The position numbers and the translations under genes were made by a program. This document shows positions 1 to 10,230 of a DNA stretch of 10,230 nucleotides, in pieces. A model generated the notes under the pieces. The model did no database searches. It was given only the letters and a program-made list of their open reading frames with translations, and was not told the origin of the DNA. Within the stretch, counting starts at the first letter, position 1. Each line of letters begins with the position of its first letter. The DNA lies in assembly GCA_041484665.1 (NCBI GenBank), contig JBGPIA010000039.1:1-10230 (forward strand), written 5' to 3'. The DNA comes from Candidatus Krumholzibacteriia bacterium. GTDB lineage: Bacteria > Krumholzibacteriota > Krumholzibacteriia > JAJRXK01.

Positions 1-94
1 CGCGCGCAGCCCTTGGCTGGCCGCCGGCAGCTCCACCGCCACGATCACCTCGTCGGGGCCGCTCGGTGTTGCGGCCGATGCCGTCCAGTCGATT
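1..94 (-). pseudogene. Frameshifted internal fragment of a molybdopterin dehydrogenase FAD-binding subunit (HcrB/CoxM-like), running off the left edge
   Basis: Hand translation, not in the ORF track. 94-62 reads NRLDGIGRNTE; after one extra base at ~61, 60-1 reads GPDEVIVAVELPAASQGLRA. This fits the 'Y..DG....L.PDE(I/V)I..(I/V).LP....G.R' junction between the FAD-binding and C-terminal domains. There is no start codon or recognisable homology further upstream. Confidence 0.65.
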
Positions 95-116
95 TGGCCT
101 CTGTGGCACTCGCCTG

Positions 117-191
117 GAATTGGGCACGGATCCGATGGTTTGGCGGAGCTTGTACATCTCACTCAACAATTCGAAGATCCGGTTCCAATTC
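117..191. repeat. 75-bp imperfect palindrome
   Basis: GAATTGGGCACGGATC (117-132) matches the reverse complement of GATCCGGTTCCAATTC (176-191) at 13/16 positions. Weaker symmetry continues inward, and palindromic TGTACA (151-156) sits at the centre. Confidence 0.7.
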
Positions 192-227
192 GCGACGCAC
201 GCCGACGTGGGGCTCCGCCAGCGCCGC

Positions 228-1475
228 CTACTCGTACCGCAGGGCCTCGATCGGGTCGAGCTTCGAAGCCCGGATCGCGGGCAGCATGCCGAACGCGAGC
301 CCGACGGTCGAGCAGAAGACGAGCCCGATGACGGCCCACTCCAGTGGGACGCGTGGCTCAAAGTGCGCGAAGACGGCGACGAGGTTGCCGAGCCCGAAGC
401 CGACCAGGACCCCCACCGCGCCGCCGATGTTGCAGAGCACGACCGCCTCCAGCAGAAATTGCGTGCGGATGCTCGCGGAGCGCGCGCCGAGCGCCTTGCG
501 CAGGCCGATCTCCCGGGTTCGCTCCGTCACGGCGACCAGCATGATGTTCATGATCCCGATCCCGGCCACGATCAGCGCGATGATGCCGATGACGAAACCC
601 GCCATCTTCACTCCCATGCTCATCCGGTTGAACTCCGTGATCAGGCTGGCGCTGTTGTAGAAGTCGAAATTGTCCTCCTCACCCGCCTTGACGCCGCGTT
701 CCCTTCGCAGGATCTGACGCGTCTGTTCGATCGCATCGGTCATGAGTTCGGGGGTCTTCGCCCGCACCGTGATGTTGACCGAGCGGGCCATTCCGTTCCG
801 ATCGGTGAGTCCGTAGACGTTCAGGAACGTCGTGACAGGCATCAGCACGTAGTTGTCGAAGTGCCCGCCGAACGCGGACTTCTTTTCGTCGAACACGCCG
901 GCCACCCGGTACTTTCGATGGTCGATGAGGATCTCCCGTCCAAGCGGATCGGTGAAGGGGAACAATTTCTGCGCGATCGCATGACCGATGACCACCACCC
1001 GGCCGGCACTTCTCACGTCCATCGGCGAGAGGTTCCGACCCAACCCCACGTAATGTGTGTTGTTGGGCGCGTACTCGGGCGTGCCGCCCACGATCGAGAT
1101 GTTCGGATTGGTGACCTCACCCCGGTATTCCGCGACGAAGCCGAAGTCCCAGATCTCGGATCCCACCAGGTCCACCGAGCCGACCTGCTCCCGAATGGCG
1201 TCGGCATTCTCGAGCGTGAGCGGCGGACGGCGCATGGCACGCCGCCGTTGCGCGTCCGACGCAAACCCGCCGGCCGGCCATTTTTGCACCTGGAAGGTCT
1301 GCGCCCCCAGCACGCTCATCTCCCTTTCAAGCGTGGCCTGGACCAGGGCAATGGCCGTCATCACAGCGATGATCGAGGCGACTCCCGCAACGATGCCCAC
1401 GAGCGTCAGCACCGTCCTCAGCTTGTTGGCCAGGATGACGTGGAGTGACATGGACAGCGCATCAAGCGGGCGCAC
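228..1475 (-). CDS. ABC transporter permease, MacB/FtsX family (no fused ATPase)
   Basis: N-terminal ANKLRTVLTLVGIVAGVASII, a large periplasmic domain, and C-terminal GIGIMNIMLVAVTERTREIGLRKALGA...ASKLDPIEALRYE. GTG at 1475 has GGAGG 7 nt upstream. An alternative ATG at 1499 overlaps the upstream gene's end. Confidence 0.95.
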   Translation of the reverse strand: MRPLDALSMSLHVILANKLRTVLTLVGIVAGVASIIAVMTAIALVQATLEREMSVLGAQTFQVQKWPAGGFASDAQRRRAMRRPPLTLENADAIREQVGSVDLVGSEIWDFGFVAEYRGEVTNPNISIVGGTPEYAPNNTHYVGLGRNLSPMDVRSAGRVVVIGHAIAQKLFPFTDPLGREILIDHRKYRVAGVFDEKKSAFGGHFDNYVLMPVTTFLNVYGLTDRNGMARSVNITVRAKTPELMTDAIEQTRQILRRERGVKAGEEDNFDFYNSASLITEFNRMSMGVKMAGFVIGIIALIVAGIGIMNIMLVAVTERTREIGLRKALGARSASIRTQFLLEAVVLCNIGGAVGVLVGFGLGNLVAVFAHFEPRVPLEWAVIGLVFCSTVGLAFGMLPAIRASKLDPIEALRYE

Positions 1476-1491
1476 CGGATTTCCTCCGCGC

Positions 1492-2730
1492 TCACTCATG
1501 ACGGAGCGCCTCGATAGGATCCATGCGGGCCCCGCGATAGGCGGGCGCCACCCCGGCGACCAAGCCGACGAGGATCGAGATCAGGACGGCGATGCCTAGG
1601 ATCGGGAGTGACAGGCTCGCCGGCATCAGCGTGGCGTTCACGATGGCGGTCAGGATCGCGGCCAGGACGATTCCGATCGCCCCACCAAGCAGACAGATGA
1701 CGGACGACTCGAACAGAAATTGCAGGAGGATACGCCTTCGAGTCGCACCGAGCGCCTTGCGAATGCCGATCTCCGGGGTCCGCTCCGTGACGGACACGAG
1801 CATGATGTTCATCACGCCCACCGAGCCGACGAACAGCGAGATGCTCGTGACCAGGAGCCCGACCAGGAGCACGACGCCCATAACGTTGTTGAAGGTCCCG
1901 ACGAGGGTGTCGAGCTTGTTGATCGAGAAATTGTCGGGCTCGGCGGGCCGCAACGCGCGAACCTTGCGCATCTCCCCGATCACCGCGTACTCGAGATCTT
2001 CCATCGCCTCTTGGGAGGGCGCCTTGATCGCGACGTTCACGTCCACGTGGCCTCGACGGCCGCCGAAGGTTTTCACGTAGGAGGTGATCGGGATGAAGAT
2101 CTGCCGGTCGAGGTTGGGGCCTCCGAGAAAGCTCCCACCCTGCTTTTCCATCACACCGATGACCCGAAACTCGGTGCGGCCGATCCTGAGGGTCCGGTGG
2201 TTGGGATCCATGCCCTTGAAGAGGCCGTCCCGAATGTCACTCCCGATCACGCAGACGTTCTTCTTGTAGTTCAGGTCGAAGGGCATCAGGAATCGCCCGC
2301 TCTGCGGCTGGGCGGGGGACATCTGGGACTGCTTCTCCGTCGTGCCGACGAGCGTCACGGCGTCCATCGTCTCGGACCCGTACTTGACGTCCACCCGGCT
2401 GTCCAGGGTGGGGTTCACCAGGGCCTTGCCCCGCAGCCGGTCCTCGAGGGCGCGGGCCTCCCGCAGATCGAGATTCGGGCGATTGCGGTACAGGAAGAAG
2501 TCGTTCATGACCACCCAGGGCATGCGCGACACGTAAATCACATCCGTGCCCACCGCGGAGAAGCTCTCGCGGAACCTGTTCTGCAACCCGTTCACCGCGG
2601 TCATCGTGGTCACCACCGCGACGATACCGATGATGATCCCCAGCGTCGTCAGGGCGCCCCGCACCTTGTTGGCCGCCAGCGCGCCGAGAGCGATCTGGAG
2701 CGACTCGCGAAGAATGAGCAGCGATCCCAT
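1492..2730 (-). CDS. ABC transporter permease, MacB/FtsX family (no fused ATPase)
   Basis: ANKVRGALTTLGIIIGIVAVV; VGVMNIMLVSVTERTPEIGIRKALGA; PAYRGARMDPIEALRHE; four-TM MacB topology. Confidence 0.95.
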   Translation of the reverse strand: MGSLLILRESLQIALGALAANKVRGALTTLGIIIGIVAVVTTMTAVNGLQNRFRESFSAVGTDVIYVSRMPWVVMNDFFLYRNRPNLDLREARALEDRLRGKALVNPTLDSRVDVKYGSETMDAVTLVGTTEKQSQMSPAQPQSGRFLMPFDLNYKKNVCVIGSDIRDGLFKGMDPNHRTLRIGRTEFRVIGVMEKQGGSFLGGPNLDRQIFIPITSYVKTFGGRRGHVDVNVAIKAPSQEAMEDLEYAVIGEMRKVRALRPAEPDNFSINKLDTLVGTFNNVMGVVLLVGLLVTSISLFVGSVGVMNIMLVSVTERTPEIGIRKALGATRRRILLQFLFESSVICLLGGAIGIVLAAILTAIVNATLMPASLSLPILGIAVLISILVGLVAGVAPAYRGARMDPIEALRHE

Positions 2731-2743
2731 CCTGTTGGAGCCC

Positions 2744-4012
2744 CTATGCCCGCACCTTGCTCGCGTCCGGCTTCTCGGGCTGCTTCTCGTTGTTGATCCT
2801 CACCACGGCGCCGTTCTCGAGGTCCTTCGAGATCGCGCGGTAGCTTCCGGTGACGACCTCCTCACCCTCCCGCAGGCCCTCGAGGATCTCGATCAACTCG
2901 TCACTCTGAATGCCGGTCTTGACCTGTCGGGCGACCGCCTTGCCGCCCTCGACGCAGAACACCACCTCCACGAAGCCGTCCCGATCGGGCTTGAAGCGTG
3001 CTTCGACGTCCTTTCGTTTCTCGCCCTTCTTCACGAGCTGGTCCACCGTCCGAAGCGCCACGCACTGAAGTGGCACACTCAGCGCATTGGAATTGGTGTT
3101 GGTCACGATGTCCGCGCTGGCCGTCATGCCCGGCCGAAGTGCCTTGGGGGGATCGGTGATGCTGATCTTGATCTCGAACTCGGTCTTCTGCTCGGAGGTG
3201 CCCGAGGCCAGGGCATTGGCGCTGCTGCTGATCTCGTGCACGGTGCCCTTCAGCGTCTGACCGAGCAGGGCATCCGACTGGATCTCCGCCGGTTGGCCGG
3301 CCTTGATGGAGACGATGTCGTTCTCGTCCACATTGACCTGCGCCTCCATCTCCGAGAGGTCGGCGATCACCAGAATGACGTCCGCCTGGAATTGGGACCC
3401 GAGAGCGATCTCGCCCTCCTCCTTGTTCAACTCGCTCACCGTTCCGGCCATGGGCGCGTAGATGGTGGTCTTGGACAGATCATCCTGGGCCTGTTTCAGC
3501 GACGCCCGCGCCTGGTCCACCTGCTCCAACACGGACTTATAGCGCGCCTCCTCGACCTGAAACGCGGTCTGTTTGGCATCGAAGTCCGAAGTCGGCTCCA
3601 GTTCCCGCGCCTGCAGCTCCGTCGACCGCGTGTACGCCTTCCGTGCCCCCTCCATTTGCTGGCGGGTAAGCGTGGCGTTCGCCTGCACGGATCTCACGTT
3701 GGCTTCCGCGCTCTCGACGGCCGCGAGATATCGTTCGCGATCCAGCCCGACCAGAAATGCGCCCTTCTCGACCCACTGGCCCTCCACGACGGCGAGCTTC
3801 CTGATCTTCGCGCTCACGTCCGCGCTGATCTTGATCTGGGTTCTGGGCTGGATCTTCCCCGTCGCGCTGACCTTCTGCACGATCTCCTGTCGGCTCACCT
3901 TCGTCGATTGGACCTCGAGCCCTTTGTGCTCGCGACCCCGGGCGGCAATGAGCAGTCCGACGCTGGCCACCAGCACGAGCGCGGCGCCCGCCCACAGAGC
4001 TCTTCGTTTCAT
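2744..4012 (-). CDS. Efflux periplasmic adaptor / membrane fusion protein, MacA-like
   Basis: N-terminal TM anchor, VSATGKIQP, lipoyl half-motifs (VVEGQWVEKGAFL; TTIYAPMAGTV), helical hairpin, VDENDI, LRPGMTA, and C-terminal VKTGIQSDELIEILEGLREGEEVVTG. Confidence 0.95.
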   Translation of the reverse strand: MKRRALWAGAALVLVASVGLLIAARGREHKGLEVQSTKVSRQEIVQKVSATGKIQPRTQIKISADVSAKIRKLAVVEGQWVEKGAFLVGLDRERYLAAVESAEANVRSVQANATLTRQQMEGARKAYTRSTELQARELEPTSDFDAKQTAFQVEEARYKSVLEQVDQARASLKQAQDDLSKTTIYAPMAGTVSELNKEEGEIALGSQFQADVILVIADLSEMEAQVNVDENDIVSIKAGQPAEIQSDALLGQTLKGTVHEISSSANALASGTSEQKTEFEIKISITDPPKALRPGMTASADIVTNTNSNALSVPLQCVALRTVDQLVKKGEKRKDVEARFKPDRDGFVEVVFCVEGGKAVARQVKTGIQSDELIEILEGLREGEEVVTGSYRAISKDLENGAVVRINNEKQPEKPDASKVRA

Positions 4013-4085
4013 CGTCCCGCGCTTTCCATGATCATGTGTGTCCGGACGTAACGGGCCCTTCGAGGCATCGAGGCGTCGGCTGTGA

Positions 4086-4112
4086 ATACGACCGAGGCGA
4101 GGGAAAGGTTAC
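4086..4112 (-). promoter_or_regulatory. Putative ECF-sigma promoter for the adaptor-permease operon
   Basis: Minus strand GTAACC-N16-CGTAT about 75 nt upstream of ATG 4012; fits the AAC...CGT ECF pattern. Confidence 0.55.
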
Positions 4113-4223
4113 CACACCGGGCGGCGGAAGTACCGGGGGGCGCGCTGGGGTTAGGCCGGCGGTCCGCCTCCCCATCCCGGACTGAATCCTATCCACAGCG
4201 TGAATGTCCGGTCCGCCCGGACG

Positions 4224-4325
4224 CGCTCAGCCCAACAGCTGCTGCAGCAGCCGCCGCGTGGACAATCCCAGCATCTTGCGTCGGTGCTTGGGCGTGAAGC
4301 GGGTGTTCTTGCGCGGCACCACCTC
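4224..4325 (+). repeat. Direct repeat copy 1 (partner 10129-10230)
   Basis: Ungapped hand alignment gives 93/102 identity at offset 5905 bp; the first 37 bp are identical. Confidence 0.97.
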
Positions 4326-4355
4326 GGCAGTCACGCGGTCGCTCAGAGCGCGGAT
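4227..4355 (-). pseudogene. Decayed 3' tail of a FAD-binding subunit gene (CO_deh_flav_C-like end)
   Basis: IRALSDRVTAEVVPRKNTRFTPKHRRKMLGLSTRRLLQQLLG*. It duplicates the gene end at 10132-10230 and has no 5' part. The right boundary is approximate. Confidence 0.75.
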
Positions 4356-4356
4356 C

Positions 4357-4482
4357 GGCGCTTGGCGGGAACTCGGCGATCGCATGCTGGAGGGCAAGGA
4401 GCCTGCGGGCTTCTTCGACATGAAACTGACGCGCGTGGGGAACTCCAACTGGCCCGCGGCCGGCGTCATCAGCCGCAAGTAG
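4357..4482 (+). pseudogene. 3' fragment of a conserved hypothetical gene (possibly DUF1579-like)
   Basis: GAWRELGDRMLEGKEPAGFFDMKLTRVGNSNWPAAGVISRK* resembles a recalled C-terminus 'G.W.E.GDR...GKEP..FFEM.L.RVGD..WPAAGA'. The in-frame sequence upstream is antisense FAD-gene tail. Confidence 0.55.
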
Positions 4483-4576
4483 CGGCGCGTTCGGCAGCCA
4501 GCCCGTCTCGATCGAACGGCATCCGAGCGAGCAGATGGTGCAGGATTGACCCTCTTCGGGGAGCTGGGCCTGAGAC

Positions 4577-6439
4577 TCAGCGCTGGCCGCCGCGGCGCGC
4601 CACCAGCTCGATGGGTGGACCGGTCACCACGCCTTTCTTTCCTGCGTCGACCGGCGCGAGCCGCAGCCGCGCCGGGCCGAGCGCCCCGGCTGGGACCGCC
4701 ACCCGCACCGAATTCTCCGGTCGCCCGCCGACCCGCCGGGGGGCGCTCCAGGTGTGGCCGTCGTCCCACGATAGCGACAGGTTGGCACGCTCCGCGCCAA
4801 GCCAGGACACCATCGCTGCGTCCCCAGCACTCCAGCGGTCGCCCGAGCGCGGCCGCAGAATCACGAAGCGATTGAAATCGAGCAGGTAGGCAGCCCCGGC
4901 CGCCTTGCCCACCTGATCGTTGCCGGGCGCACCGACCAGCAAGGTGGGGAAGCCGTCTCCCCGCAGGTCCGCTAGAGCGCACAGGCTAGCACCGAACTGT
5001 TCACCCGCGCCCGTGCCCACGAGCTTCAGATCGGGCATCGCATCCATGTCCGGCCCGCCGAAATACACGTAGATCGCGCCGGAGGCCCCGAGCCCCTGGT
5101 CGAAGGTGTACGCCCCGATGAGAAGATCCTGGAAGCCGTCTCCGTTCACGTCGGCGACCGCGAGCCGCTCGCCGAAGCGACTGCCGGCTTTTTCCCCCTG
5201 GAGCACCACCGCAGGAGCGGTCTGCGGGTTCGGCCCGCCGAGGTAGACGTAGGCCGCGCCCGAGCTAGGCTCGAAGCCGTCCGCCCAACCCGCACCCACC
5301 ACCACGTCGGAAGCACCGTCGCCATTGAGATCGGCGCCGGTGACACTCGATCCGAACCAGGCGCCGGGCGCGGGAGCTGCCAGCAAGAGATCCGGCCGTG
5401 TGTGCGGGGTGCGACCGCCGAAGTAGATGTAGCACCGGCCGGCGAGCCGGCCGTCCGTGTCGTCCCAGTGGGCCCCGACCGCGATGTCCTCGAAACCGTC
5501 GCTGTTCACGTCCCCCACCACGGCCACGGCGTAACCGAATTGCGCTTCGGGCACCGCGGTCGCGAGCGTGAGATCTGGCTGCCCGGAAAACTGGCGCCCT
5601 CCGAAGTACACGAATGCGCGTCCGCTGGGAGTCCCGGATGCATCGTCGGTGGGGGCGCCGACGATCAACTCCGCGATGCCGTCTCCGTTCACGTCCCCCG
5701 AGGCAAGTGAGTAGCCGAAATCTTGATTCGCGCGCACCCCGTGCAGGACGCGATCGGGCTCCGTCCCCGGCGTACGAGCGCCGAAATAGAGGTAGACGTC
5801 GCCCGCACCGCGGCCCAAGGCAATCCCGGAGGGAGCCCCTACCGCAAGGTCTGGATGGCCATCGGCGTTCAGGTCCCCCGCGGCGCACATGGTGGAGCCG
5901 AAGTCCACCGCCGTTGCCGGCCGGGGGAGCTTCGCGGGACGGCCGAACGAACCGTCGGGCAGACCATAGAAAACAGTGGTGCTTCCCCGGCCATCCTCGT
6001 CGCCAGTGGAGCTGACAGCGAGATCGGGGTACCCGTCTGCGTCCAGATCGCCAGGTGAGCACACGCAGCTCCCGCAGCGCGCCCAGCTCTGCGCCCCGAC
6101 GAACGTCTGACCCGTCGTGTTGGCCACAGCCGCAGCGCCCTTGGCTAGCGCGAAGCGCGGCCGGAGCAGGCGCGGCAACGTGGTGACCCCCAGCCAGCAC
6201 AACTTCATCAACGCGGCCCCGGCGACTATCCCCGCGGCGATCGCCCAGCGCGGGCCCGCGCGCCGTGTCGGAACCAGGTCGGCCGAGCCCCCCGCGGCCG
6301 CGAGCGCGCGCTCCATCTCGGCCGCACTGCGGAAGCGATGGCCGGGCTCGCGCGCCAGCGCGCGCTCCACGACCCGCACGAATGCCGGCGGCAAATCGGG
6401 CCGCAAGAGGCGAGCGAGGCGAACGGTCCAAGCCGGCAT
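4577..6439 (-). CDS. Membrane-anchored FG-GAP (integrin-alpha-like) seven-blade beta-propeller protein; probably a 5'-truncated Ser/Thr kinase-TM-FG-GAP gene
   Basis: Seven D-x-[DNR]-x-D-G repeats: GDLDADG, GDLNADG, GDVNGDG, GDVNSDG, ADLNGDG, ADVNGDG, ADLRGDG, most with FG...GA(P) motifs. TM segment WAIAAGIVAGAALMKLCWLGV. The N-terminus RPDLPPAFVRVVERALAREPGHRFRSAAEMERAL matches Hanks kinase subdomains X-XI. The C-terminus is beta-sandwich-like (ILRPRSGDRWSAG...VSW). There is no RBS at ATG 6439. Confidence 0.85.
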   Translation of the reverse strand: MPAWTVRLARLLRPDLPPAFVRVVERALAREPGHRFRSAAEMERALAAAGGSADLVPTRRAGPRWAIAAGIVAGAALMKLCWLGVTTLPRLLRPRFALAKGAAAVANTTGQTFVGAQSWARCGSCVCSPGDLDADGYPDLAVSSTGDEDGRGSTTVFYGLPDGSFGRPAKLPRPATAVDFGSTMCAAGDLNADGHPDLAVGAPSGIALGRGAGDVYLYFGARTPGTEPDRVLHGVRANQDFGYSLASGDVNGDGIAELIVGAPTDDASGTPSGRAFVYFGGRQFSGQPDLTLATAVPEAQFGYAVAVVGDVNSDGFEDIAVGAHWDDTDGRLAGRCYIYFGGRTPHTRPDLLLAAPAPGAWFGSSVTGADLNGDGASDVVVGAGWADGFEPSSGAAYVYLGGPNPQTAPAVVLQGEKAGSRFGERLAVADVNGDGFQDLLIGAYTFDQGLGASGAIYVYFGGPDMDAMPDLKLVGTGAGEQFGASLCALADLRGDGFPTLLVGAPGNDQVGKAAGAAYLLDFNRFVILRPRSGDRWSAGDAAMVSWLGAERANLSLSWDDGHTWSAPRRVGGRPENSVRVAVPAGALGPARLRLAPVDAGKKGVVTGPPIELVARRGGQR

Positions 6440-6475
6440 TGGGCGCCGCGTTTGTGCGACTTTCCGCCCGATTTC

Positions 6476-6484
6476 TGCTACGAT
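6476..6484 (+). promoter_or_regulatory. Possible extended -10 element upstream of the lipoprotein gene
   Basis: TGcTACGAT about 50 nt before ATG 6534, with GGAGG at 6517-6521. No well-spaced -35 element. Confidence 0.35.
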
Positions 6485-6533
6485 CGACCCCCCGCAGACG
6501 GCACACCTCTAACGCTGGAGGGCGCGTACCGCC

Positions 6534-7460
6534 ATGGTTCGAAGGCTGAACTCTATCCTATGGGTCCTGGCAGTGCTGATCGGCGGCGGCTGCGGGGGTG
6601 ATGACGACGGTGGTGGGCCCCCCACCGAGCCGGGCGGTAGCACGGGGGGAGGGAACTTCTTCGCGGCGAAGATCGATGGCGTCTCGTGGAGCAGCGACAG
6701 CGATCGGATCCAGGTCACCGGCAACACTCCGGCAACGCGACCGGGGACACTCGTCCTCAGTGGGTACAATGTCTCGAACAACCGTGGCGTCCAGCTGACG
6801 CTCTCCTTCATCATCGGTCCAGCCTCGCAGCCGCTGGGCGTCAATCCCGGCACCAATCCTGGTGGCACCGGCGGGCTGATCCTTAGCACCGACTCGTGGC
6901 TCACACCATTGAACGGCGCAGCCGGGTTCATCAACATCACCGCGCGCACGGACAAGCGCATCGCGGGAAGCTTCAATTTCACCGCCGACGGAATCCTGCC
7001 CAGCATCGTTCCGCCGCAGCGCGTCGTCACTGAAGGTGCCTTCGACATCACGATCGACGCCGGGCTCCCGCCGCTGCCGACCGGAGTGGGCAGCACCTCC
7101 ATCGCCACCATCGGCGGCACGCCTTGGAACGCGGCAACCATCGTCGGGAGCTACGCTGGGCCCGGGGTCTTCGCACTGTCGGTGGGCAACACCAGCTACA
7201 TGATCGTCTTCACGCCCGCGACGCCGGTGTCGGCCGGCAATGTCTACGGCATTCCCTCGCAGGTGACCATGCAGGTGACGCGGCAGGGGACCGCCGACGG
7301 ATGGGCGGCCGTCACCGGCCCCGACATCGGTTCGTTTTCACTCACGACCTTCAACGTCAACCGCCTGATCGCGACGTACAATGCCACGCTGCCCAAGCTC
7401 GGGGGCGGGGCTCCGCTGGCCATCACCGGCGGAACGATCAACGCGTATCTCGAAAACTGA
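6534..7460 (+). CDS. Lipoprotein with two tandem beta-rich domains (DUF6252-like)
   Basis: Signal peptide ending LAVLIGGG-C, then a G/D/P linker. Domain 1 reads FAAKIDGVSW...ITARTDKRIAGSFNFTA...VTEGAFDI. Domain 2 reads ATIGGTPWNA...LTTFNVNRLIATYNATL...ITGGTINA. Confidence 0.85.
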   Translation: MVRRLNSILWVLAVLIGGGCGGDDDGGGPPTEPGGSTGGGNFFAAKIDGVSWSSDSDRIQVTGNTPATRPGTLVLSGYNVSNNRGVQLTLSFIIGPASQPLGVNPGTNPGGTGGLILSTDSWLTPLNGAAGFINITARTDKRIAGSFNFTADGILPSIVPPQRVVTEGAFDITIDAGLPPLPTGVGSTSIATIGGTPWNAATIVGSYAGPGVFALSVGNTSYMIVFTPATPVSAGNVYGIPSQVTMQVTRQGTADGWAAVTGPDIGSFSLTTFNVNRLIATYNATLPKLGGGAPLAITGGTINAYLEN

Positions 7461-7709
7461 TGAGCGTCGGCGCCAGGGGCAGGCGCACCAGGCGCCACGC
7501 CTCCCCGCGGCGCAACCGACGTCTCGCCACCCGGGCCTGTTCGCGCGTGGACCATCGCGCGTGGGACTCCTCGGGCGAGGCCCCAGCGTGGGCCTCGCTG
7601 CCCAGCCTCGCAGGACGGTGCCCATTGCCGTCCCAGCGCGCCGCGTAGCGGGCGTCGATCGCGCGTGCGGGTCAGCCACCAGTCGCCGTCTCGAGCGGGG
7701 AGGTGCCGT

Positions 7710-8279
7710 ATGCGCGTGCGCGCCATTGGCTCGTTGGTAGGAGTCGCCTGCGCATGCGCCGGGTGTCTCGTTCAGGCCACCCCGATCTACGACTGGAGCC
7801 GCACCTTCGGCGTCCACAGCCAACCCCACACGGCCGCGGTGGCCACCGACGGCCAGGGCAACGTGCTCGCAACCGGCGACTTCGAAGGCTCGATCGCGCT
7901 CGGCGGCAGTCCGTTGCACAGCGCCGGCACCGCCGACATCTTCCTCGCGAAGTTCGATTCCGACGGCCATCACCAATGGAGCCGGCGGTTCGGATCGTTC
8001 GATTGCGATGGGGGCACCGCAGTGACCGCGGACCCCGCGGGCAATGTGGTGGTGGCCGGACGGTTCCGCCACACGGTGGATCTGGGCGGTGGAGTGCTCA
8101 CGAGCGCAGGGAACAACGACACCTGCCTCGCGAAGCTCGACGCCGAGGGCCTGGCCGATGCCCGGCAGATCCTCGAGGCCTGGAAAGAGGAGTACAATAC
8201 GGAGCGGCCGCACTCGGCATCGGAAGACAGCACTCCCGCCGACTACGCGGCCAGACTGCTAGCCTGGTCTTCAGGTTAG
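7710..8279 (+). pseudogene. Secreted SBBP-type beta-propeller gene, truncated after ~2 blades and fused in frame to an IS3 transposase C-terminus
   Basis: GGGGAGGT RBS (7697-7704) before ATG 7710, then a signal-like N-terminus. Two repeats WSR.FG....AV..D..GNV...G.F...LGG..L.SAG..D..LAK.D..G run up to 8150, followed by LADARQILEAWKEEYNTERPHS. Confidence 0.85.
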
Positions 8280-8333
8280 CCGTCTTGAACGTTCGAATCT
8301 CTCGAAATCCCTGGACCAAGGTTGAGTACGTCT
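8151..8333 (+). mobile_element. IS3-family remnant: transposase 3' end plus degenerate right end
   Basis: LADARQILEAWKEEYNTERPHSASEDSTPADYAA matches the rve_3-type 'W..dYN..RPHSsLg..TP.eya' motif. Downstream CTGGACCAAGGTTGAGTACGTCT resembles IS3 right ends but ends in CT rather than CA, so the end coordinate is tentative. Confidence 0.8.
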
Positions 8334-8626
8334 CCCGCTACCTCCGCGGTCAACTCGTCCGAATCGGGTACGAACGTGCAGTTCACTTCGACTTTCAGAA
8401 CTGGCCGGCCTATCTCGCCTTTGCTAATTCGCGTGAGCCAAGTTCCGATAGGATCAGGAGCGTCGCAGAGGCGAAGGGCGTGTTCGAATCGACCGCAGTT
8501 TTCACCCGGCGCTTCCTCGAGATGCATCTCATGAACGATAATGGCGCCGGCGCGGCTCTCACCACCCCCGCGCATGTCGCGGACGTATCATCAGGTCTCG
8601 CGACCGTCCTTGTAGTGCGCCGATGA
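8334..8626 (+). pseudogene. Possible 3' fragment of an unidentified gene
   Basis: Open frame RYLRGQLVRIGYERAVHFDFQNWPAYLAF...ATVLVVRR* with protein-like composition and visibly lower GC than the flanks. The stop overlaps a new ATG (ATGA, 8623-8626). Confidence 0.35.
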
Positions 8627-8657
8627 GCGGCCGGCGTCTCGTCCGCCATGCGCTGCC

Positions 8658-8679
8658 GCGGATAGCGGTTTGTATCCGC
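8658..8679 (-). other. oriIS-like terminus of the IS91/ISCR-like element
   Basis: Minus strand GCGG-ATACAAACCGCTAT-CCGC lies about 280 bp downstream of the transposase stop. It resembles ...AAnnnCCTAT oriIS ends and forms a 7-bp stem GCGGATA/TATCCGC. Confidence 0.6.
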
Positions 8680-9976
8680 CCCGGCCCGAACTGCGTCCGC
8701 GCGCCGCGGCACCTCACGCTGATGCGCGTGCCCGCAACAACGCTCGCTCGCCCTGGCCACGGCTCGGGGGGCCGCTTCGGCGATGCGGGGCACGCCATCT
8801 CACACCTGCAGTGCCGCGCGGCTTGCGACCGGCGGCTCTCCATCCCCCCCGCGGGCACACCTCCACGCCCACTCCCCCACGAACTCCAGGCGAGCCCAGC
8901 AGGATGCCCCCGGTGAGCGGCGCTCGTGGCCGGTCACGTCACGCCGCGGGCGGGGCCCGCCCCTCAGCCGGCTCCTCAAACGGATCCCTGCCGCCTGTCA
9001 TTGCCAGGTGGCGCAGGATGCGGTCCACCACGCCCTCGTCCTGGATCACCGACACGATCCGCATCTCCACGCCGCAGCGCGGACAGAGTAGCGGGTCCGC
9101 TTCGTAGATCCGCCGCAGCAGCCGCGCCCAGCTGCACCGGCGCGCACGTTGCCCGGCGCTCTGCGCTGGCGTGGTGTCCAGGGGAGCCGCTGCCGCCGGT
9201 GGGGCAGCAGCACGGCTCGCCTCGCTGCGCCGCCGCGCCCCGCGGCTGCGGTTGGAGTACCAACCGACATACCGCACCGTGTGCTGCCGGGGAGCCGGGA
9301 TCTGCTGCACCAGCCGGTGGATCAGCTCCAGGGGGTCCAGGTGCAGGTCGCGTTGGCCCGTGCGCGGGTCGAGGGGCGTCTGCACCACCACGGCCTGCGC
9401 GGTCTGCCGTACTGCATCCAGCCGCAGCGGCGCCCGCGTCAGGTAGCGCGCGACGTGCTCCAGGCTCGCCGTGTCGTCGGACAACAGGGCGGGACCCACG
9501 TGCACCGAAAAGCCCGAGTGCACCCAGCGCAGCAGGTTCTGGTGGAACTCCTCCGACAAACGCTGCTCCCGCCGCAGCGCGGCCAGCACCAACCGGCGGA
9601 AGAGCTCGGTCAGGGCGGCAGCGTCCCAGAGACCCATGCGCTCGAAGTGGCCGTCGGGTGCGAAGGCACCGTCGGTAACGATGGCGTGCACATGCGGATG
9701 GAAGTTGGCGGCGTAGCTGCCGAAGGTCTGCAGGGCGGCCACCGTCCCCACCGACAGGGATGGATCGTCGAAGTACGCCCGAGCCGCCCGTTGTACGCAG
9801 TCGTGCGCACAACGGCTCAGCAGCGAGAGCAGCCGGCGCTCCCGCTCGAACAACCCGCGCAGCGCTTTGGGGATGGTGAACACCACGTGGCGGTGCGGGA
9901 CCGGCTCCAGCACGGAGGTGACCAGCAGCTCCCCGAACAACGCCGCCCGCTTGGCCTGGCAGCTCGGGCAGACCCC
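8662..9976 (-). mobile_element. Truncated IS91/ISCR-like rolling-circle element (ori end kept, ter end lost)
   Basis: HUH transposase plus an oriIS-like end at 8662; homology is lost upstream of GVCPSC at ~9976. Confidence 0.75.
8939..9976 (-). pseudogene. IS91-family (Y2_Tnp-type) HUH transposase, 5'-truncated
   Basis: GVCPSCQAKR, PHRHVVFTIP, QTFG, NFHPHVH (HUH), HSGFSVH, ARYLTR, VRYVGWYSN, SWARLLRRIYEADPLLCPRCG. Most of the N-terminal zinc-binding domain is absent. The track's TTG start at 9991 looks fortuitous. Confidence 0.9.
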
Positions 9977-10128
9977 GGCTGTGTCGCCCAACGACCTTGC
10001 CGCCGCAGCGGGAGGCCAGGATCAGAGGCAGGCCAGCATCACCTTAGCGGCCAGCGGCGCGCCTCACCACCAGCACGACGCAAGCGCGGGGACCGGCCAC
10101 CACAGGCCACAGCCGATGCGCCCCGGTA

Positions 10129-10230
10129 CGCTCAGCCCAACAGCTGCTGCAGCAGCCGCCGCGTGAACACCCCGAGCATCTTGCGGCGGTACTTGGGCGT
10201 GAAGTGGGTGTTCTTGTGCGGCACGACCTC
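10129..10230 (+). repeat. Direct repeat copy 2 (partner 4224-4325; may extend beyond the window)
   Basis: 93/102 identity to 4224-4325, up to the window edge. Confidence 0.97.
10132..10230 (-). CDS. 3' end of a molybdopterin dehydrogenase FAD-binding subunit gene (HcrB/CoxM-like), entering from the right edge
   Basis: Hand translation EVVPHKNTHFTPKYRRKMLGVFTRRLLQQLLG* fits the 'P..N.....YR..M..V..RR.L' end of the CO dehydrogenase flavoprotein C-terminal domain. Only 32 codons are visible. Confidence 0.65.
   Translation of the reverse strand, partial: EVVPHKNTHFTPKYRRKMLGVFTRRLLQQLLG

What the first reader, a model, noticed from the sequence alone, without database searches (positions are those of the whole stretch)
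1..10230. Candidate tandem integration hotspot: three same-strand pieces of a FAD-subunit gene bracket two cargo modules
Seen: minus-strand FAD-subunit-like pieces at 10132-10230, 4227-~4355 and 1-94, separated by an intact efflux module and a fragment-rich module. Established: elements integrating into a gene's 3' part often restore it and leave a displaced 3' duplicate, and repeated events give tandem islands; usual targets are tRNAs and a few housekeeping genes. Inference: this HcrB/CoxM-like gene is a repeatedly used attachment locus, a target I do not recognise as described. No integrase is present in the window. Rolling-circle or homologous-recombination duplication are alternative explanations.
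Basis: partly seen in the sequence, partly recalled or inferred. Interest (0 to 1): 0.75.

Follow-up and report, generated by a model that had tools for sequence, protein, structure and literature searches.

The report
IS91 gene-capture relics behind reductase gene
Broken copies of one enzyme gene's end alternate with stumps of a rolling-circle jumping gene and blocks of unrelated genes, a layout that likely arose by the gene-capture route known from antibiotic-resistance plasmids rather than by an integrase using a new attachment site.

Summary
The three pieces are real. The window is a whole contig (C39). The complete hcrB-like gene starts contig C4, which overlaps C39's right end. It matches window 4208-4361 (88%) and 1-91 (92%), and contig C46 carries a further tail (99%). 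The 1-91 piece is internal and frameshifted; its likely continuation on C28 is fused to an IS91 stump, so no tail lies where predicted. No recombinase is tied to the site. Instead, gene pieces, 5'-truncated IS91 transposases, origin-like ends and cargo alternate in one direction, as in ISCR1 complex integrons. A duplicated flank lies on the terminator side of 4 of 24 IS91 remnants and on the origin side of none (random rate 1%); two of the four are at other loci. Two relatives carry one-strand IS91-end arrays at a different gene, and no hcrB tail was found in 11 genomes with the gene. Best reading: IS91 one-ended capture plus recombination (0.65). An att site is unlikely (0.12), though two tails start within 4 bases. 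Reads could not be examined. The scan's unchecked notes report this layout on other DNA five times.

The parts
1..91 (-). Internal, frameshifted piece of the hcrB-like gene (= C4:349-438); likely continues onto the right end of C28, where it is fused to an IS91 3' stump
   Evidence: 92% identity, 1-nt insertion; adjacency to C28 inferred
228..1499 (-). MacB-like ABC permease (cargo block C)
   Evidence: PF12704 + PF02687
1492..2730 (-). Second MacB-like ABC permease (cargo block C)
   Evidence: PF12704 + PF02687
2744..4012 (-). Periplasmic adaptor, MacA/HlyD type (cargo block C)
   Evidence: PF16576; TIGR01730 over cut-off
4208..4361 (-). Decayed 3' tail of the hcrB-like gene (last 44 codons, stop at 4227-4229)
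   Evidence: 88% to C4:12-165; 13 changes in 132 coding nt, 5 silent and 8 missense
4355..4485 (+). Fragment of an unrelated gene abutting the tail
   Evidence: 63% amino-acid match to C17:61593-61721; no Pfam family
4577..6439 (-). FG-GAP repeat ORF whose start is a piece of another gene (cargo block B)
   Evidence: PF01839, 7 stretches; 5' part matches C1:74653-74799
6534..7460 (+). Intact 308-aa gene, likely an exported lipoprotein (cargo block B)
   Evidence: weak NF052634 and DUF6252 hits below cut-off; no second copy in the genome
7665..8279 (+). Beta-propeller gene fragment fused to the tail of a DDE (rve_3) transposase (cargo block B)
   Evidence: PF17164/PF06739 weak; PF13683 at residues 152-191
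8660..8677 (-). Origin-like (oriIS-like) end of the IS91-family element; element ends at 8660
   Evidence: motif shared with other IS91 remnants of this genome; same terminal pentamer at 11 ends in G006; function inferred
8939..9991 (-). 5'-truncated IS91-family (HUH) transposase ORF; IS homology ends at 9973; about 100 N-terminal residues missing
   Evidence: NF033538 over cut-off; PF04986; compared with the full ORF in G006
9974..10131 (.). Spacer between the hcrB stop and the truncated IS91
   Evidence: no other copy in the assembly beyond the 30 nt shared with C4 and C46
10132..10230 (-). 3' end of the hcrB-like gene (full gene on C4) or of its 99% tail copy (C46)
   Evidence: 129-nt exact overlap with both contigs; PF03450

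Best explanation
Pieces of an hcrB-like gene, truncated IS91-family transposase genes with their origin-like ends, and blocks of unrelated genes alternate in one direction, and this array was likely built by rolling-circle capture plus homologous recombination, as proposed for ISCR1 complex integrons. Shown: the layout gene piece > IS91 stump > origin-like end > cargo > gene piece; different 5' ends and ages of the pieces; decay in place; no linked recombinase. Inferred step 1: an IS91 element settled just downstream of hcrB and lost its terminator end, fusing to the gene's 3' flank. Inferred step 2: transposase, probably supplied in trans, copied from the origin through the stump into hcrB and stopped at surrogate sites, moving 'hcrB tail + IS91' next to other DNA. 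Inferred step 3: circles carrying cargo and this homology recombined back into hcrB or into an IS91 stump, leaving the gene whole and a tail beyond the cargo. Later deletions trimmed units, such as the 7-nt microhomology join of hcrB to IS91 on C28. On this reading the hotspot follows the IS91 element, and hcrB is a local anchor.
For: hcrB sequence sits on the terminator side of a same-sense IS91 stump in the window (159 nt away) and on C28 (fused). C49, which joins C46 by a 129-nt overlap, begins with an IS91-like C-terminus and an origin-like end at 327, so the C46 tail is also preceded by origin > cargo. 8 of 22 IS91 remnants lie on C28+C39 (about 1% of the genome), 7 of the 8 in hcrB's sense (assumes the inferred C28 orientation). 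A duplicated low-copy flank lies on the terminator side of 4 of 24 remnants and the origin side of 0 of 24; random island rate 1.0%, P about 1e-4. Without the two hcrB cases it is 2 of 22, P 0.022; these are C1:819726-820219/813729-814219 and C6:7915-8018/6388-6491. G006 has 11 of 11 exact origin motifs on one strand within 37 kb and G009 7 of 7, at a locus other than hcrB. Published basis: failed termination co-mobilises adjacent DNA and mini-elements move with transposase in trans (PMC13181058); circles re-enter by homologous recombination (PMC7707992).
Against: No intact IS91 transposase is in this assembly. The tail at 4208-4361 is followed by the Mac genes, not by IS91. The IS91 3' regions next to the different hcrB pieces are of different subtypes, so one founding fusion does not explain all of them without further recombination. 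No piece's 5' end abuts an origin, and no shared terminator-like motif was seen at the three 5' ends. 20 of 24 remnants have no duplicated flank. Direct repeats that bracket DNA also occur without an adjacent IS91 (25 direct and 4 inverted low-copy pairs, some of them tandem paralogues; C36 and C1:668-675 kb). The enrichment test was designed after seeing the hcrB cases, on a hand-made list. Contig order is inferred from a short-read-type graph.
Confidence: 0.65

Rival explanations
1. hcrB is a true attachment site. A recombinase crosses over about 130-140 nt before the stop, each incoming element restores the gene, and displaced tails mark tandem islands.
For: Two tails of very different age (1.5% and 10% diverged) begin within 4 nt of each other, at C4:169 and 165. 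By a hand estimate this has about a 1% chance if ends were uniform over the gene. A second left flank of the 153-nt repeat is missing from the bin and could hold an integrase (inferred). Integration into protein-coding genes with restoration is known (PMC12884075).
Against: The third piece (C4:197-438) lies wholly upstream of that point. None of 10 tyrosine recombinases is on C4, C39, C46, C49 or C28. The one serine recombinase on C28 sits inside an IS91 gene. No hcrB half-site was found within 2.5 kb of 14 recombinase matches apart from a chance-level 17-mer, whereas tRNA-Lys half-sites were found beside two. The flanks upstream of the tails are no more alike than 548 of 2000 random pairs. 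No tail in 11 other genomes, and none in phage, plasmid or viral collections.
Confidence: 0.12
2. Generic duplication. Illegitimate or RecA-mediated tandem duplications of the hcrB end arose in a decaying accessory region, and cargo and IS91 elements inserted independently afterwards.
For: 25 direct against 4 inverted low-copy repeat pairs 1-80 kb apart genome-wide. Gene-tail repeats bracket cargo on C36 and C1:668-675 kb without an abutting IS91 stump. The region is full of fragments and microhomology joins.
Against: It does not predict the terminator-side asymmetry (4 of 24 against 0 of 24), nor one-strand arrays of origin ends in relatives.
Confidence: 0.18
3. Assembly or binning artefact: the pieces come from mixed strains or mis-joined contigs.
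For: The genome is in 54 contigs and the window's right end is a graph fork. Reads were not examined. C46/C49 could belong to another strain.
Against: The pieces inside the window differ from the full gene by 6-10%, with missense changes at conserved residues and a frameshift, which an assembler does not create. Window proteins are also held under JGI and Logan sources. Bin contamination is 0.47%.
Confidence: 0.05

Closest known systems
ISCR1-linked (complex) class 1 integrons
   Same: Order: anchor sequence, IS91-family element, origin end, cargo, partial duplicate of the anchor. Proposed route by aberrant rolling-circle replication and homologous recombination (PMC7707992 and PMC3575428, passages).
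   Different: The anchor is a chromosomal metabolic gene, not the integron 3' segment. The transposases are truncated and of several subtypes. The cargo is efflux, secreted repeat proteins and sugar-use genes. The ISCR clade Ia model is far below cut-off (106 against 925 bits).
IS91/IS801/IS1294 one-ended transposition
   Same: HUH transposase family (NF033538 over cut-off); dissimilar ends; conserved origin-like end downstream of the gene; DNA carried on the terminator side (PMC13181058, PMC5737581, passages).
   Different: The end motif and the bases after it differ from the CTTG/GTTC targets. No activity is shown, and no intact copy is in this assembly.
Tandem genomic islands at tRNA/tmRNA or protein-gene attachment sites (Islander/TIGER type)
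   Same: Whole gene, then cargo, then same-orientation 3' fragments, in tandem (PMC4383910, passages).
   Different: Islander requires an integrase and an end fragment for each island and rejects internal fragments. Here no integrase is linked and one piece is internal.
4-hydroxybenzoyl-CoA reductase (HcrCAB) and the xanthine dehydrogenase family
   Same: The three-gene operon on C4 scores best with TIGR03193/4/5; the closest homologues are named HcrB by JGI.
   Different: All three scores are below the curated cut-offs, so the substrate is not established.

Membership tests
Integrase-targeted tandem islands | Integrase gene within each island | tested here: not met
   None on C39, C46, C49 or C4; the C28 serine recombinase lies inside an IS91 gene. 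One linking contig is missing from the bin.
Integrase-targeted tandem islands | Displaced pieces are end fragments from one crossover point | tested here: inconclusive
   Two tails start at C4:169 and 165; the third piece is internal, C4:197-438.
Integrase-targeted tandem islands | Related attP-derived arms beside the fragments | tested here: not met
   548 of 2000 random 60-mer pairs score as high as the two flanks.
Integrase-targeted tandem islands | Precise empty site or the same target in relatives | tested here: inconclusive
   No same-genus genome is held. 11 more distant genomes with the gene show no tail; only 3 of them were queried with their own gene.
IS91 family | HUH rolling-circle transposase | tested here: met
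   NF033538 142.5 bits against cut-off 125; PF04986; 5'-truncated.
IS91 family | Conserved origin end downstream of the transposase | tested here: met
   Shared end motif at 8660 and at other remnants; homology stops at the same motif at 10 G006 ends. Function not assayed.
IS91 family | Terminator end and target tetranucleotide | tested here: inconclusive
   The terminator side is deleted in the window; bases after the origin are only weakly conserved; no common motif at fragment 5' ends.
ISCR1-type capture unit | Terminator-side flank duplicated beyond origin-side cargo | tested here: met
   Window, C49-C46, C1:814-820 kb, C6:6-9 kb; 4 of 24 against 0 of 24.
ISCR1-type capture unit | Intact ISCR transposase next to a class 1 integron 3' segment | tested here: not met
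   Truncated, below the ISCR clade Ia cut-off, anchored on hcrB. It works like ISCR1 but is not ISCR1.
ISCR1-type capture unit | Circular intermediates and recombinational re-entry | not testable with these tools
   Needs reads or culture; no reads were obtained.

The most novel reading that the evidence does not exclude
IS91 origin ends act in this bacterial family as an integron-like gene-collecting platform. Origin-bounded cargo circles made by a transposase in trans are stacked in one direction at a host-gene anchor, and a preferred surrogate terminator inside hcrB gives the two tails their near-identical start. The arrays in G006 and G009 (11 of 11 and 7 of 7 origin motifs on one strand) would be live versions.
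Probability: 0.2. Interest if true: 0.6.

Novelty: new member of a known kind. Interest (0 to 1): 0.3.

Why it matters
It shows that the gene-capture layout known from resistance plasmids can build chromosomal accessory islands behind an ordinary metabolic gene in an uncultured lineage. It also warns that 'whole gene plus displaced 3' copies' is not by itself evidence of an integrase attachment site. It does not establish HcrB/CoxM-like genes as a new integration target. The younger, one-strand IS91-end arrays in G006 and G009 are better material for testing the mechanism than this decayed locus.

Tried and rejected
No sequencing reads were obtained, so junctions and contig order are unverified. 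A degenerate pattern for the hcrB C-terminus gave 3 metagenome loci (one near-complete gene and two contig-edge partials, all distant orthologues) and 0 viral loci. The last 460 nt of the gene region had no match in plasmids or phages. A protein scan of genome contigs gave 3 loci at 63-64% identity, with no repeat of the gene in their flanks. Across 208 class genomes, 65 matched at E<=1e-8; among the listed rows, short C-terminal-only hits occur only in G000, but the query is weak for distant tails. A shared 7-mer upstream of both tails was rejected as chance. A direct origin-to-tail junction was looked for and not found. Most other orphan gene tails in the genome belong to introns, IS elements or contig overlaps. 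A 17-nt hcrB match on C34 was treated as chance (E 0.33 genome-wide). The two older pieces do not differ significantly in divergence (13/132 against 9/155, P 0.27), so their order by age is not resolved. Literature: no relevant paper on a xanthine-dehydrogenase-family FAD subunit as attB among the 10 listed of 11 hits; nothing on this phylum's islands among the 20 listed; supplied the comparisons. These searches cover open-access text only. Toleman 2006 was not held and is cited through PMC7707992. The bioRxiv paper was seen as abstract and outline only and not used. No supplements were read; att-site tables in TIGER-type supplements could bear on whether this gene family is a known target.
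Full report
Setting. The window is the whole of contig C39 of a 5.45-Mb, 54-contig genome. The closest genome contigs relatives of the gene (63-64% identity) are titled Candidatus Krumholzibacteriota. C39's right end overlaps the starts of both C4 and C46 by 129 nt, and C4 and C46 share exactly 141 nt. Many other contig ends share 141 nt, so I infer a k=141 assembly, a 153-nt exact repeat, and a second left flank that is not in the bin.

Observation. The complete gene is C4:31-1044 (minus strand), behind hcrC- and hcrA-like genes. All three score best with TIGR03193/4/5 but below cut-off. Partial copies are C46:1-169 (99%), window 4208-4361 (88%), window 1-91 (= C4:349-438, 92%, 1-nt insertion) and the right end of C28 (= C4:197-264, 94%). 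The last two are collinear with an 84-nt gap and neither contig end has an overlap partner, so I infer one internal piece. On C28 it joins IS91 sequence through a 7-nt overlap. Prediction 1 holds; prediction 2 does not in this assembly. The 4208 tail has 13 changes in 132 coding nt (5 silent, 8 missense, several at residues conserved in homologues); the internal piece has 9 in 155; C46 has 2 in 136. The older pieces therefore decayed in place and are not assembly duplicates.

Anatomy in gene sense. Window: hcrB end, spacer, 5'-truncated IS91 transposase (NF033538 over cut-off; about 100 residues missing against the full ORF in G006), origin-like end at 8660, 4.3 kb of cargo, tail, 4.1 kb Mac block, internal piece. 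On C28 this continues as IS91 stump, degraded origin-like end at 41949, sugar-use genes and further IS91 remnants. C49 joins C46 by 129 nt and starts with an IS91-like C-terminus and an origin-like end at 327, followed by 11.1 kb of cargo and the 99% tail. A weight matrix built from 7 ends found 2 more above score 23, both on C28. Eight of 22 transposase remnants lie on C28+C39, 7 of them in hcrB's sense. The exception to the pattern is the 4208 tail, which is followed by the Mac genes.

Tests of the att model. Ten tyrosine and 4 serine recombinase matches were found. None is on C4, C39, C46 or C49, and the one on C28 interrupts an IS91 gene. Within 2.5 kb of these 14 there is no hcrB half-site beyond a chance-level 17-mer, while tRNA-Lys half-sites are recovered beside two of them as a positive control. 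The flanks upstream of the two tails are unrelated. Eleven other genomes with the gene show no tail (13 genomes searched, 11 with the gene, 3 queried with their own gene; all are draft genomes). In favour of the model, the two tails start within 4 nt of each other, and the missing contig is unseen.

Tests of the rolling-circle model. On a hand-made list of 24 IS91 remnants, a low-copy duplicated flank lies within 200 nt of the terminator side in 4 and within 300 nt of the origin side in 0; random island positions give 1.0% (P about 1e-4). Excluding the two hcrB cases that prompted the test, it is 2 of 22 (P 0.022). At C1 the duplicated 495 nt is the upstream region and 5' part of an oppositely oriented gene, which fits capture of whatever lies on the terminator side. 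Four of 9 family relatives carry this transposase family. G006 has 11 of 11 exact origin motifs on one strand in 37 kb and G009 7 of 7, beside a different gene. Against the model: no intact transposase in this bin, different IS91 subtypes in different units, no common motif at the fragment starts, and bracketing repeats without IS91 elsewhere.

Comparison. Passages read: PMC13181058 (failed termination, one-ended transposition, trans action), PMC7707992 and PMC3575428 (ISCR1 model, 3' segment duplications), PMC5737581 (environmental IS91 circle), PMC4383910 (island criteria), PMC12884075 (protein-gene targets). The locus works like an ISCR1 capture array but is not ISCR1, and it fails the integrase criterion for tandem islands. 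My reading was noted before the look-up that returned five unchecked notes of the same layout in other genomes.

Verdict. A real, decayed IS91-associated cargo array anchored on an hcrB-like gene: a new member of a known kind. Capture plus recombination 0.65, generic duplication 0.18, att site 0.12, artefact 0.05. Interest 0.3.

Noticed in passing
G006:C9:475,990-512,450 (L110-L112) and G009:C9:229,000-271,000 (L114-L117): One-strand arrays of IS91 origin ends separating cargo blocks at an orthologous locus; 11 and 7 exact origin motifs, nearly all followed by GT; G006 holds a full-length transposase ORF.
   Followed up: partly
G000:C28:13158-15975 (L003); also C6:14507, and C6 left end with C17 right end: A large serine recombinase plus DUF6788 element interrupts an IS91 transposase gene with a 10-nt overlap; the same junction sequence recurs on C6, suggesting a recombinase that targets IS91 genes.
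   Followed up: partly
G000:C1:813729-820219 (L077): Second example of the layout: 495-nt repeat (84%), IS91 stump and 5.5 kb of cargo, upstream of a primary-type sigma factor gene.
   Followed up: yes
G000:C36:990-13379 (L068): An LVIVD + CHAT/TPR module, 73-74% identical to C49, bracketed by a 294-nt 96% gene-tail repeat, with a small IS91 remnant inside.
   Followed up: partly
G000:C1:668147-675510 (L057): A gene tail repeated after 5.2 kb of cargo, with an identity gradient: more diverged 5' part, about 90% in the last 230 nt.
   Followed up: partly
window 228-4012: Adaptor plus two MacB-like permeases without ATPase or outer-membrane channel; closest in-genome paralogues are about 31-35% identical.
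   Followed up: no
P0124: A diverged copy of the truncated transposase (about 14 of 350 residues differ, counted by eye) with the same non-IS start exists on an 8.2-kb JGI contig, so the fusion exists in a second copy or strain.
   Followed up: partly
G000:C53:214-2756 (L076): A tyrosine recombinase with a SAM_4 domain next to a nitroreductase and a xanthine-dehydrogenase-family large-subunit gene start.
   Followed up: no
L003:11553-12485 (G000:C28): A protein joining an Hcp-like domain to a FlgD Ig-like tail among the cargo.
   Followed up: no
L021 and L054/L056, just downstream of the hcrB orthologue: About 900 nt of extra DNA between hcrB and the convergent RND gene, absent in L022, L023 and L055, with no hcrB duplication.
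   Followed up: partly
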